NCBI GenBank assembly: GCA_000165345.1
Contig: CM000435.1
Coordinates: forward strand, 704,001 to 768,000
Length of the DNA stretch: 64,000 nt
Reading direction: 5' to 3'
Position 1 is the first letter of the stretch. Each line of letters opens with the position of its first letter. Positions 43,001-46,000 of this stretch are shown in pieces. Made by a program: the position numbers.

Positions 43001-46000
43001 AAAGATAACGAGACTATCACTTCTAATTCAAATTTCTTTTCTGCAATTCTTAGCAAAATTAAAAATGGAGTGAAGTTAACCTCAGATAAACAAGCTATAA
43101 GTGAAAGTAAAGAAGAAACTTTTGAAAACAATGAGTTGGAAGCCGAAACTGTAGAAGATGAAGTTCTAACTATGAAACAAGATTCCACTCCTGAACATAA
43201 TCAGTTCTTGGACAAATAGAAATCTTTTAACCCTGAATTAAAATAAAAATTATTATCCCTTTGTATAGTCCATGCCAGTAGGAAAAATTAAATAAAGTTA
43301 AGTAATCATTACAGATTGTTTTAATCGAGTGTTAAATTAGTTTTTTAAATATCAACACAATGATAAGTGAAACTGAGATAAAAACTAGCGTGACCAATGT
43401 TATTCTACAACAGAAGGTAGTGTTATTATTTGTACCGATAACTTCCTGTACCTTTCTGTTCAGGTTAAAGATGTCGGTTGTAGCAAATTCTGTAGTATTC
43501 TTAATTTCTTCAATACTTATGTTGTGTGCTTTAGCCTCGCGGCCAAGCTGTGCTGCTTTATCTGCGATTCTTAACGCCATATTTCCTACTTCTTTTATAT
43601 CTTCATCTATTCTTCTATTTTCCAAACTCCATTCATTAATTTTAGTTTTATCTGAATCACCAATTTCCCTATGCTCAACTTTGTTTGCTGAATCAGGTTT
43701 AAGCAAGAAATCATTTAAAGTTGTTGAATGTGTAATTTTTGAAAATGGATCGGTAAATAATTTATTAAATCTCGATTCAGTTATTTCAATAAACTCCTTT
43801 TCATAATTTTCAATATCAATGTACTTATTATCATCTTTATTCAGCTGATTAATGCGCAAACTGGAAGAATACTTATTGTAAATTTTCCTTAATTCCCGAA
43901 TTTCTATTTTCATTTGACTAATTAAATCCACCAACTTAATTTTTGTCAACAACTTTGGGTGATTCTCGTCGTTTTCAAGATGATCTAAAATTGTGTAAGT
44001 TGTATTATATAATTCAAACAATTTAATCTTGTGTTTTATATATTCTTGTTCAATGCTTGAAACTTCATCAATTTTCACATCAGATTCACATAGGAGTTCA
44101 ATGTGTTTAACACGCTTTAAAAGGTCTTCAATTTCATTAAAACCCCTTGTATACTTCCAGTCCATATTAAATTAAAAAAAAACTTTGCAAAAATATTTGT
44201 CATAAATGGTTGAAACAAAATATATGGATGGATGTTAATTGAACAATTAAACGGGCAAAAAGATTACAAATTTAGCTTTGTTACTCAAATTCCGTCAAAA
44301 GTTAAATGAGGATTATCCAAATTCTGATAGCAACTGATAGTTATATTTTTAAAGTTTTAATATCAGGGCAATATCTACTATGATGATTAAGATCATCTTC
44401 TGGGGTATTCACTCTAGTTGAAGCGCCAGAAGAAAATTTACTTTCATATTGATGTAGTTTTACACGCCATTCTCTATAAAGGTTGTCAAATTCTCTTTTT
44501 GTCAACCTTGTATCACATTTCGGAGTTCTGGGGTCTTCGGATGATCTTTTCTCTAAAGGAACTTGATTTATATAATTCTTGTACTCAGGTAGACTTTTCC
44601 CAATTGCTATCTGCTTTAACCGAGAAATCATTCTTGACGTCAAGGGCTCCTCAGATGCCTTTAGTTCAGTATTCTGACGTACAAAATCGCTCTTATAATT
44701 GCCATACTTTATTAATTCAGTGGATGGGAGTTTCTCAAGAAGAGATGTCAAATCAGAAAATGAAAAAAATCCCTTGTTTGGTGGTGGATCAACCTCATTA
44801 TAGATGTCAAAGTTTTTGCTATCCAAAGTGAAAAGAGAATTTTTGGACTGTATGTATTTAGAGCCTGAATTCAAATTCTTTGCTTCACTCTCTTTTACCT
44901 CGAGCTTGGGTAAATTAGGATGAACCTCAATTGCTGATACAAAATTCTTTTCTTTGACTTTCTTCCCTATCAGCAGTAATATCGATACTTCATAAACTCT
45001 GTGTGGCGTCATCGGATTGCAAAATAATGGAGTGTTGTTATCCAAATTGATCATAAATAATGTATACCACGAGTCAGCTATACGCAGTTATTTTACTCAT
45101 ACAAAACCAGCGATCAGTATCCCGGCGGCATACACAATTTTTTTTACTTTATTAAAATTAACAACAGAAAAGCCTTATAAACAAGTTATAAAAGACTTAA
45201 ATTATTGAATAAAATAGACTAAATATTCAGCAACCTATTTAATTTTAAATATACTAAGTTTACCTGGCTTCATATTGAATCATCTTTCTCGTCCTCTTTT
45301 TGTATAAAATCCTGCATCCGCAAGTTCGGCATCTAACTGCTGCGCCGTGAGATAGCAAACTAACATCAGCACCGCATTCTAAATAATGAAATCATTCAAA
45401 ATTATAACTTTTTAAAAAACTTACCACCACAAATATATGTAACTGGTTCAACCATGCCTTTATTTACATTAACTCCGTTGTTATCTAAAATTGAGGTTGT
45501 TTTACTTTCTGCACCATTCATTGTATTGAAGTTACTTTTTAAAGTTTTAAGAAACCCTCTCAATACAATATATTTTGAATTCCCAAGACTTTAATAGGCT
45601 AGTATAGGCAAAGTCGCGCAAAAAGTCCTAGTTAAAAATATTCATTAGAACAATGCAAATTGGGTACCTACGAGGGAAAACAGACAGTATTGTAAATACC
45701 GCAAAGACACGAACGTTTTGTTTTTTTTTTTTTTTATAACAATTTCAAATTATTTAAGACGTGACATTTAATACCCAAAACTCAATGTATCCATTGCAGG
45801 CCATTAATTCTTATTATTACATATTTTCCCAAAAAAAGAACTAAACTTTTTTTTCCTCAGTTATTCAATGGCCACAATTGAAATGGATTCTGTCGAAGGA
45901 TTTCAGCTGAAGCATGGCTCATTGATTGGCGGTGCAAGGAAAGGCTGTTTATGCTTATCTCTAAGACTTTCAGTTTTTTTACATGGGCTGCTGAATATTA

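What the first reader, a model, noticed from the sequence alone, without database searches (positions are those of the whole stretch)
44341..45054. SLBP homolog: a histone-mRNA stem-loop pathway is predicted in this organism
The RNA-binding domain KQIAIGKSLPEYKNYINQVPLEKRSSEDPRTPKCDTRLTKREFDNLYREWRVKLHQYE is collinear with metazoan SLBP. That family is absent from fungi and patchy among protists. Its presence predicts that replication-dependent histone mRNAs end in a conserved 3' hairpin rather than poly(A). It also predicts U7/Lsm10-11-type processing factors encoded elsewhere.
Basis: partly seen in the sequence, partly recalled or inferred. Interest (0 to 1): 0.6.

Follow-up and report, generated by a model that had tools for sequence, protein, structure and literature searches.

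The report
Cryptosporidium's already-annotated histone hairpin-binding protein
This is the known Cryptosporidium parvum gene cgd7_3230, a genuine stem-loop binding protein (SLBP) already named as such in public databases, so the call is correct but not new; whether the parasite's histone mRNAs really end in a hairpin instead of poly(A) is supported here only indirectly.

Summary
Window 44341-45054 (minus strand) is an intact 237-aa ORF. Residues 140-204 score 74.9 bits against Pfam SLBP_RNA_bind (cutoff 27). A model of the domain alone matches only SLBP-RNA crystal structures in the PDB. The domain is 71-99% identical across 12 Cryptosporidium orthologues, against 19-95% for the N-terminal region.

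It is not new. [quoted passage not shown] Published qPCR primers for that gene map inside the ORF. SLBP and histone hairpins in alveolates were reported in 2008.

The predicted pathway could not be tested directly. The window and 10 kb on each side hold no histone gene, and I found no route to Cryptosporidium histone flanks. Published data give indirect support. H4 and H2B exceed actin 4- to 240-fold by random-hexamer qPCR. In the RNA-seq tables H4 lies about 2^7 below actin, and no core histone by name is in the top-500 lists.

U7/Lsm10-11 remain untested. Trypanosome and dinoflagellate cases show that an SLBP gene alone does not prove poly(A)-less histone mRNAs.

Verdict: real, ordinary, already annotated.

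The parts
44341..45054 (-). Complete coding sequence of C. parvum cgd7_3230, stem-loop binding protein (SLBP), 237 aa plus stop; no intron needed
   Evidence: ORF list. [quoted passage not shown] NCBI and Logan gene calls have the same 237-aa extent. Published cgd7_3230 qPCR primers map at 44506-44528 and 44411-44432.
44443..44649 (-). RNA-binding domain (residues 136-204), the block that is near-invariant within the genus
   Evidence: Pfam PF15247 matches residues 140-204 at 74.9 bits. The block is 71-99% identical across 12 Cryptosporidium orthologues against 19-95% for residues 1-135. The RBD-only AlphaFold model (pLDDT 78.7) has SLBP-RNA complexes 4tuw, 4qoz, 4tux and 4l8r as its top five PDB hits, at probability 0.99-1.00.
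44602..44637 (-). Predicted helix A of the RBD (residues 140-151), containing RLKQIAIGK
   Evidence: DSSP on the models. It aligns to human R138-K146.
44563..44592 (-). Predicted helix B (residues 155-164), containing Y158 and Y161, which align to human Y151 and Y154
   Evidence: Both tyrosines are invariant in the genus.
44521..44526 (-). T177-P178, counterpart of the metazoan TPNK threonine-proline (human T171-P172); here the motif reads TPKC
   Evidence: Alignment to human and fly SLBP. T177 and P178 are invariant in 13 Cryptosporidium sequences, while the two following residues vary. The role of the phospho-threonine is from established knowledge of metazoan SLBP and was not tested here.
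44443..44499 (-). Predicted helix C (residues 186-204), carrying K186-R187 (human R180-R181), D190, W196 and H201 (human D184, W190, H195)
   Evidence: R187 is nearly invariant (at least 90% of sequences; Lys in C. felis P0007); W196 and H201 are invariant. That human R181 makes the base-specific contact to the stem guanine is recalled from the 4L8R structure paper and was not tested here.
45055..45259 (-). 205-bp upstream intergenic region between the RPABC4 stop codon and the SLBP start codon; the presumed promoter and 5' UTR
   Evidence: Sequence and gene calls. No regulatory element was tested. It contains a lone GC-rich island, CCCGGCGGC, at 45121-45129.

Best explanation
The ORF is the Cryptosporidium parvum orthologue of stem-loop binding protein (gene cgd7_3230). 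It is a small protein, mostly disordered, whose only folded part is a three-helix RNA-binding domain of about 70 residues. Shown here: the gene's identity, the domain, the fold, strong purifying selection on the domain, expression, and vertical inheritance within alveolates. Inferred: the domain clamps the 5' side of a short hairpin in the 3' UTR of the replication-dependent histone mRNAs (H2A, H2B, H3, H4). This would mark them for cleavage just after the hairpin by the CPSF73 nuclease instead of polyadenylation, and then support their export, translation and S-phase-limited stability. SLBP would thereby help couple histone supply to the rapid rounds of DNA replication during merogony.
For: Domain: Pfam SLBP_RNA_bind at 74.9 bits against a cutoff of 27; phmmer hits to fly and human SLBP.

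Fold: the top five PDB matches to the RBD model are all SLBP-hairpin RNA complexes at probability 0.99-1.00, and every other hit is at 0.07 or below.

Residues aligned to human R138, K140, Q141, G145, K146, Y151, Y154, T171, P172, R181, D184, W190 and H195 are kept, and most are invariant in the genus.

Constraint: the RBD is 71-99% identical against 19-95% for the N-terminal region.

Identity: EAK90326.1 / cgd7_3230.

Ancestry: the nearest named relatives outside the genus are Babesia and Theileria SLBP-domain proteins, then a dinoflagellate.

Timing: SLBP mRNA is highest at 6 h, and H2B and H4 rise to high levels by 12 h. SLBP is higher in asexual stages than in in-vivo females (group means 6.45 and 4.51 log2).

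Poly(A) status, indirect: with random-hexamer cDNA, H4/actin is 5.7, 14 and 241-fold at 12, 24 and 48 h, and H2B/actin is 3.8 and 11-fold. In the RNA-seq tables actin is about log2 14 and H4 is 6.0-7.3. H2B is in no table, and no core histone by name is in the top-500 lists. H4 against the similarly short H3 gene cgd3_2540 is log2 11-13 by qPCR but 0.4-1.7 by RNA-seq in the same samples.

In Toxoplasma, H2Ba, H4, H2Ax, H2A1 and H2Bb are poorly detected in poly(A)-selected data.
Against: No Cryptosporidium histone 3' flank was examined, so the RNA target is unverified.

The expression argument joins two laboratories' data. The actin RNA-seq values come from sorted cells (SMART-Seq v4; that this kit primes with oligo-dT is my own kit knowledge), while the H4 values come from bulk cultures whose cDNA method is not stated. 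qPCR primer efficiencies are unknown, and short transcripts are under-sampled by tagmentation.

The SLBP qPCR signal is low and noisy.

Two positions known to matter in human SLBP differ: R137 is Ser and Y144 is Ile. The NK of TPNK is not kept.

No Lsm10, Lsm11 or U7 is named in the C. parvum tables.

A 2025 review of Cryptosporidium gene regulation never mentions SLBP, stem-loops or polyadenylation, so no experiment supports the function in this genus.
Confidence: 0.78

Rival explanations
1. It is a true SLBP-family protein, but it acts mainly in the cytoplasm as a translation or stability factor on histone mRNAs that are also polyadenylated. There would be no U7-type cleavage, as proposed for trypanosomes, so the 'hairpin instead of poly(A)' prediction would fail.
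For: T. brucei SLBP2 binds eIF4E2 and is linked to histone mRNA translation. Physarum histone transcripts carry both hairpin and poly(A) signals. A dinoflagellate has an SLBP-type domain, while dinoflagellate histone mRNAs are reported as polyadenylated and hairpin-less. No Lsm10/11 or U7 is named in C. parvum tables. H4 is still detectable in the RNA-seq data at log2 6-7, so some polyadenylated or internally primed molecules exist.
Against: H4 and H2B show a shortfall of 10 log2 units or more in RNA-seq relative to random-primed qPCR. That is hard to explain if the bulk of these mRNAs carried poly(A). The related Toxoplasma shows the poly(A)-minus pattern. The central eIF4E2-binding segment of TbSLBP2 is described as missing in other SLBPs.
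Confidence: 0.15
2. The SLBP fold has been retained for RNA targets other than histone mRNAs.
For: The target RNA was not seen here. Two RNA-binding positions differ from human (R137S, Y144I). The N- and C-terminal regions share no recognisable motif with metazoan SLBP, and Pfam finds only the RBD.
Against: Near-invariance of the RBD, including the arginine aligned to human R181, is what a conserved target would produce. Expression is highest in replicating stages. From my own knowledge, no SLBP-family member is known to have a non-histone primary target.
Confidence: 0.05
3. The gene was captured from an animal host by horizontal transfer and is not ancestral to the parasite lineage.
For: SLBP is best known from metazoa, and Cryptosporidium lives inside animal cells. 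Fly and human SLBP are the only solved relatives.
Against: In an exhaustive profile search, the best named hits outside Cryptosporidium are apicomplexan (Babesia bigemina, B. bovis, B. divergens, B. duncani and Theileria equi, at 80-86 bits), followed by a dinoflagellate. Orthologues are present in both intestinal and gastric Cryptosporidium lineages. The base composition is typical of the window.
Confidence: 0.02

Closest known systems
Human SLBP/HBP and Drosophila SLBP (PDB 4L8R, 4QOZ, 4TUX, 4TUW)
   Same: The same ~70-residue three-helix RNA-binding domain, collinear and 32-35% identical in the structural alignment. The TP dipeptide, the arginine aligned to R181, and the Tyr, Trp and His positions are kept.
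   Different: The protein is much shorter (237 aa). The N-terminal region has no detectable similarity to the metazoan regulatory and translation-activation regions. The motif is TPKC, not TPNK. Ser and Ile replace human R137 and Y144. RNA binding, phosphorylation and U7-dependent processing are all untested.
Other apicomplexan SLBP-domain proteins (Babesia bovis XP_001612220, B. bigemina, B. divergens, B. duncani, Theileria equi)
   Same: They are the closest named relatives outside the genus (80-86 bits to the Cryptosporidium profile), carry the same domain and belong to the same phylum.
   Different: They are longer (323-392 aa), with the RBD at the extreme C-terminus in several. They are equally uncharacterised.
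Toxoplasma gondii histone 3'-end system
   Same: Same phylum. Canonical histone mRNAs are reported as lacking poly(A) and as sensitive to CPSF3 mutations. The C. parvum H2B gene cgd5_3170 is listed as the orthologue of TgH2Bb.
   Different: The evidence in Toxoplasma is transcript-level. The held literature has no functional study of any apicomplexan SLBP.
Trypanosoma brucei SLBP2
   Same: A protist SLBP-family protein said to bind the histone mRNA 3' UTR stem-loop.
   Different: It acts through a central eIF4E2-binding segment described as missing in other SLBPs.

Membership tests
SLBP family (Pfam PF15247, histone RNA hairpin-binding protein) | Sequence scores above the curated threshold of the SLBP_RNA_bind profile over essentially its full length | tested here: met
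   74.9 bits against a cutoff of 27, E 5.1e-21, profile positions 4-69 of 70.
SLBP family (Pfam PF15247, histone RNA hairpin-binding protein) | Three-helix RBD fold, with a long loop between helices B and C, as in the solved SLBP-RNA complexes | tested here: met
   The RBD-only model has pLDDT 78.7 and helices at residues 140-150, 156-164 and 186-209. The top five Foldseek PDB hits are 4tuw, 4qoz, 4tux, 4tuw_B and 4l8r at probability 0.99-1.00 and target-normalised TM 0.60-0.64. E-values are only 1.6e-3 to 4e-2, and all other hits have probability 0.07 or below. The full-length model was too poor to use.
SLBP family (Pfam PF15247, histone RNA hairpin-binding protein) | Conservation of the RNA-contacting and structural residues mapped in human SLBP (R137/R138, Y144, K146, Y151, Y154, R180/R181, D184, W190, H195) | tested here: met
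   Kept: R138, K146, Y151, Y154, R181 (R180 is Lys), D184, W190 and H195. Changed: R137 to Ser and Y144 to Ile. Most of the kept residues are invariant across 13 Cryptosporidium sequences; R187 and D190 are nearly invariant. The residue list is recalled from the metazoan literature (Dominski 2001 and Tan 2013, both cited).
SLBP family (Pfam PF15247, histone RNA hairpin-binding protein) | TPNK motif with a phosphorylatable threonine in the B-C loop | tested here: inconclusive
   T177-P178 are invariant, but the next two residues are KC, RC, EC, KH or RY rather than NK. Phosphorylation cannot be tested with these tools.
Histone mRNA stem-loop 3'-end pathway (the functional system) | Conserved 16-nt hairpin (Rfam RF00032) shortly after the stop codon of replication-dependent histone genes | not testable with these tools
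   There is no histone gene in the window or within 10 kb beyond it, no Rfam hit in the window and no consensus hairpin. Three protein searches and three collection scans failed to reach Cryptosporidium histone loci. The alveolate H2B loci I did reach are the variant H2B.Z, so their lack of a hairpin is uninformative.
Histone mRNA stem-loop 3'-end pathway (the functional system) | Replication-dependent histone mRNAs lack poly(A) tails | tested here: inconclusive
   Indirect and supportive. H4 and H2B are 4- to 240-fold above actin by random-hexamer qPCR, but H4 is about 2^7 below actin in RNA-seq, and no core histone by name is in the top-500 lists. H4 against cgd3_2540 is log2 11-13 by qPCR and 0.4-1.7 by RNA-seq. 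This is a cross-study comparison, and the priming method of the bulk libraries is not stated.
Histone mRNA stem-loop 3'-end pathway (the functional system) | U7 snRNP with Lsm10/Lsm11 directing CPSF73 cleavage | not tested
   The window has no U7 hit. The C. parvum tables name Lsm1, LSm5 and one generic LSM-domain protein, cgd1_2250, and no Lsm10/11. No proteome or genome search was possible.

The most novel reading that the evidence does not exclude
Cryptosporidium may run a stripped-down histone 3'-end pathway consisting of SLBP plus the CPSF73 nuclease, with no recognisable U7, Lsm10 or Lsm11. In that case its canonical histone mRNAs would be essentially poly(A)-minus. Nearly all existing Cryptosporidium transcriptomes, which come from poly(A)-enriched libraries, would then be blind to the parasite's most abundant S-phase transcripts. 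Histone pre-mRNA processing would also become a direct, unexamined readout and liability for the CPSF3-targeting benzoxaboroles developed against cryptosporidiosis.
Probability: 0.3. Interest if true: 0.45.

Novelty: already known. Interest (0 to 1): 0.2.

Why it matters
As a gene call it adds nothing. GenBank, UniProt and CryptoDB already name this protein an SLBP, and a 2008 comparative study placed SLBP and histone hairpins in alveolates. The pathway does seem to have been overlooked in Cryptosporidium biology. A 2025 review of gene regulation in the genus never mentions it, and the held literature has no functional study of any apicomplexan SLBP. If histone mRNAs are indeed poly(A)-less, poly(A)-based bulk and single-cell data understate histone expression and S-phase state. 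CPSF3 inhibitors under development against this parasite would then hit histone mRNA maturation as well as polyadenylation, as Toxoplasma CPSF3 mutants suggest. That question is modest, testable and of practical use, but it is not a surprise to specialists.

Tried and rejected
1. Histone gene in the window: tblastn with H2A, H2B, H3 and H4 found nothing. The 10 kb beyond each end holds none either.

2. Rfam at gathering thresholds on the window gave no hits. The hairpin consensus GGYYYTYHTNARRRCC gave 0 matches, against 0.03 expected.

3. Reaching Cryptosporidium histone loci through the protein database failed twice. A recalled 'Plasmodium H2B' query returned 120 hits, none from Cryptosporidium.

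4. Exact and codon-degenerate H2B DNA patterns found nothing in the metagenome or prokaryote-genome collections.

5. Primer tables of the H2B-mNeon paper: the fusion was ectopic with an actin 3' UTR, so they contain no native histone 3' UTR.

6. The 2008 Davila Lopez & Samuelsson paper and the Marzluff 2008 review are not held.

7. The full-length AlphaFold model had pLDDT 49 and its fold search was meaningless. It was replaced by the RBD-only model.

8. Hairpin scan of H2B loci from Vitrella, Cardiosporidium, Babesia microti, B. duncani, B. divergens, T. equi and two further Babesia assemblies: no RF00032 hit and no canonical hairpin. I rejected this as evidence because every one of these proteins has the H2B.Z variant N-tail, and variants are not expected to carry the hairpin.

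9. Horizontal transfer from the host was rejected because the nearest relatives are apicomplexan.
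Full report
OBSERVATION. Window 44341-45054 on the minus strand is an uninterrupted ATG-initiated ORF of 237 codons plus stop. Pfam's SLBP_RNA_bind model (PF15247) matches residues 140-204 at 74.9 bits, with a curated cutoff of 27 and E 5.1e-21, over positions 4-69 of the 70-position profile. No other Pfam family matches. phmmer against PDB sequences finds only SLBPs: Drosophila 4tux at E 3.5e-10 and human 4l8r at 3.9e-07. The alignment to the fly protein has no gaps, and the alignment to the human protein has one single-residue gap.

WHAT ORGANISM AND WHICH GENE. The window is about 31% G+C and densely packed with mostly intron-free ORFs. The protein's relatives are all from Cryptosporidium: C. 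tyzzeri at 96%, then C. ubiquitum, C. canis, C. felis, C. ryanae, C. xiaoi, C. muris and C. serpentis. [quoted passage not shown] Sister entries in C. hominis, C. tyzzeri and C. meleagridis carry the same name or 'Histone RNA hairpin-binding protein RNA-binding domain-containing protein'. It lies on a 1.36-Mb chromosome of assembly GCA_035232765.1. [quoted passage not shown] These are the window's neighbours. The published qPCR primers for cgd7_3230 map inside the ORF, and primers for cgd7_3160 to cgd7_3320 map along the window in order. The finding is therefore a rediscovery of an annotated gene.

THE PROTEIN. Across 13 Cryptosporidium sequences, residues 136-204 form a nearly invariant block. 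Identity to the window protein is 71-99% in that block, against 19-95% in residues 1-135 and 21-97% in the tail. This is the signature of a constrained domain flanked by fast-evolving regions that are probably disordered. The full-length AlphaFold model is poor (pLDDT 49) but places three helices in the block. A model of residues 130-215 alone reaches pLDDT 78.7. Its top five PDB matches are all SLBP-histone hairpin RNA complexes (4tuw, 4qoz, 4tux, 4l8r) at probability 0.99-1.00 and target-normalised TM 0.60-0.64, although the E-values are only 1.6e-3 to 4e-2. Nothing else exceeds probability 0.07.

Mapped onto human numbering, the residues aligned to R138, K140, Q141, G145, K146, Y151, Y154, T171-P172, R181, D184, W190 and H195 are kept. 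R180 is Lys, R137 is Ser, Y144 is Ile, and the NK of TPNK reads KC. From established knowledge of the 4L8R structure, which I did not test here, R181 makes the base-specific contact to the stem guanine, and phosphorylation of T171 tightens binding. Both residues have counterparts here: T177 is invariant in the genus and R187 nearly so (Lys in C. felis).

ANCESTRY. An exhaustive profile search finds 1,559 cluster representatives at E <= 0.001. After the four Cryptosporidium clusters (315-400 bits), the best named relatives are SLBP-domain proteins of Babesia bigemina, B. bovis, B. divergens, B. duncani and Theileria equi at 80-86 bits. Next comes a dinoflagellate, Biecheleria. The gene is therefore inherited within alveolates and was not captured from an animal host.

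THE PREDICTED PATHWAY. The window has no histone gene, no Rfam hit and no consensus hairpin. The 10 kb beyond each end also lack histones. C. parvum's histones are elsewhere: H2B is cgd5_3170, H4 is cgd8_5230, an H3 is cgd3_2540 and H2B.Z is cgd7_1700. I used all three protein searches and three collection scans without reaching those loci. The alveolate H2B loci I could fetch show no hairpin, but every one encodes the replication-independent variant H2B.Z. That negative result is expected and uninformative.

INDIRECT TEST FROM PUBLISHED DATA. Mauzy et al. 2012 measured 3,302 C. parvum genes by qPCR on random-hexamer cDNA, so the signal does not depend on poly(A). Relative to actin, H4 is 5.7-, 14- and 241-fold higher at 12, 24 and 48 h, and H2B is 3.8- and 11-fold higher at 12 and 24 h. 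Tandel et al. 2019 made sorted-cell libraries with SMART-Seq v4, which to my knowledge primes cDNA with oligo-dT. There actin is about log2 14 and sits in the top-500 list. H4 is only 6.0-7.3 in the bulk tables. H2B appears in no table, and no core histone by name is in the top-500 file. Within one bulk table, H4 exceeds the similarly short H3 gene cgd3_2540 by only 0.4-1.7 log2 at 24-48 h, whereas by qPCR the gap is 11-13 log2. This shortfall of 10 log2 units or more is what poly(A)-less histone mRNAs would produce.

The caveats are real. The data come from two laboratories. The actin RNA-seq values come from sorted cells and the H4 values from bulk cultures, whose cDNA priming is not stated. 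Primer efficiencies are unknown. I rate this as suggestive.

Three further points fit the picture. SLBP mRNA is highest at 6 h, before H2B and H4 reach high levels at 12 h, though that signal is low and noisy. SLBP mRNA is lower in non-replicating in-vivo females. In Toxoplasma the canonical histone mRNAs are under-represented in poly(A)-selected data and respond to CPSF3 mutations.

LIMITS OF THE INFERENCE. Having an SLBP gene does not by itself prove the metazoan mechanism. T. brucei SLBP2 acts with eIF4E2 in translation. Physarum histone transcripts carry both kinds of signal. A dinoflagellate encodes the domain, although dinoflagellate histone mRNAs are described as polyadenylated and hairpin-less. 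The prediction of U7/Lsm10-11 is untested: C. parvum tables name only Lsm1, LSm5 and a generic LSM-domain protein.

COMPARISON AND NOVELTY. By sequence, fold and key residues the protein is a member of the SLBP family. Membership of the full metazoan-type pathway is unproven. The gene name has been public for years. Protist SLBPs and hairpins, including in alveolates, were reported by Davila Lopez and Samuelsson in 2008. That paper is cited but is not held, so its Cryptosporidium-specific content rests on my memory. The novelty class is 'already known'. The pathway is nevertheless absent from a 2025 review of Cryptosporidium gene regulation, and the held literature has no functional work on any apicomplexan SLBP. 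The field's RNA-seq data are largely poly(A)-enriched. The residual interest is practical, not conceptual.

VERDICT. The pathway prediction is plausible and indirectly supported but not demonstrated. The finding is already annotated. Interest 0.2.

Noticed in passing
window 45260-45521 (minus strand): Immediately upstream of SLBP lies a 71-aa RNA polymerase subunit RPABC4 (Zn_ribbon_RPAB4) gene split by a 46-nt GT-AG intron at 45379-45424. The gene models for C. ubiquitum (P0002, 278 aa) and C. felis (P0007, 282 aa, misnamed 'Serine/threonine-protein phosphatase 4 catalytic subunit') have N-termini containing PVTYICGECGVDVSLLSHG. They appear to fuse this gene's first exon onto SLBP.
   Followed up: partly
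window 45121-45129: A lone GC-rich island, CCCGGCGGC, sits in the otherwise AT-rich 205-bp region between RPABC4 and the SLBP start codon. It could be a transcription-factor site, perhaps linked to the cell cycle. I did not check its conservation in other species.
   Followed up: no
outside the window: C. parvum cgd5_3170 (H2B) and cgd8_5230 (H4), from published primer sequences: Primer translations show that C. parvum canonical H2B ends ...LPRFTGGQR where most H2Bs have ...VTKYTSSK, and has TIASREI for T(I/L)(T/S)SREI. H4 reads ISALIY where the canonical sequence is ISGLIY. The H2B is divergent enough that it did not rank among the 120 best hits to a generic H2B query.
   Followed up: partly
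outside the window: C. parvum cgd3_2540 (Histone H3): This H3 gene behaves opposite to H4. It is very low by random-hexamer qPCR (about 1e-6 of 18S) but high in sporozoite RNA-seq (log2 10.0). This would fit a polyadenylated replacement-type H3, or a poor qPCR primer pair.
   Followed up: no
window 46510-46531, 51918-51940, 38980-39001: For cgd7_3250, cgd7_3280 and cgd7_3190, only one primer of each published pair matches the window exactly. Both primers match for eight other genes. The cause could be strain SNPs, primers that span introns, or text-extraction errors in the supplement.
   Followed up: no
L005 2426-2446 (Babesia microti, about 55-75 nt after the H2B.Z stop codon): A perfect 8-bp hairpin with a 5-nt loop, AGTTGGTA[CACAC]TACCAACT, follows the B. 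microti H2B.Z gene. The two assemblies L011 and L012 share a 6-bp/4-nt hairpin, AGCAGG[TCTG/TCTT]TCTGCT, followed by a T-run about 180 nt after the stop. Neither fits the histone hairpin consensus, and their meaning is unknown.
   Followed up: no
window 43332-44165 (minus strand, cgd7_3220) and 45868-46659 (plus strand, cgd7_3250): Both genes flanking the SLBP/RPABC4 pair encode proteins with no Pfam match (277 and 263 aa). The 263-aa protein looks like a multi-pass membrane protein, and the 277-aa protein ends in a hydrophobic tail.
   Followed up: no
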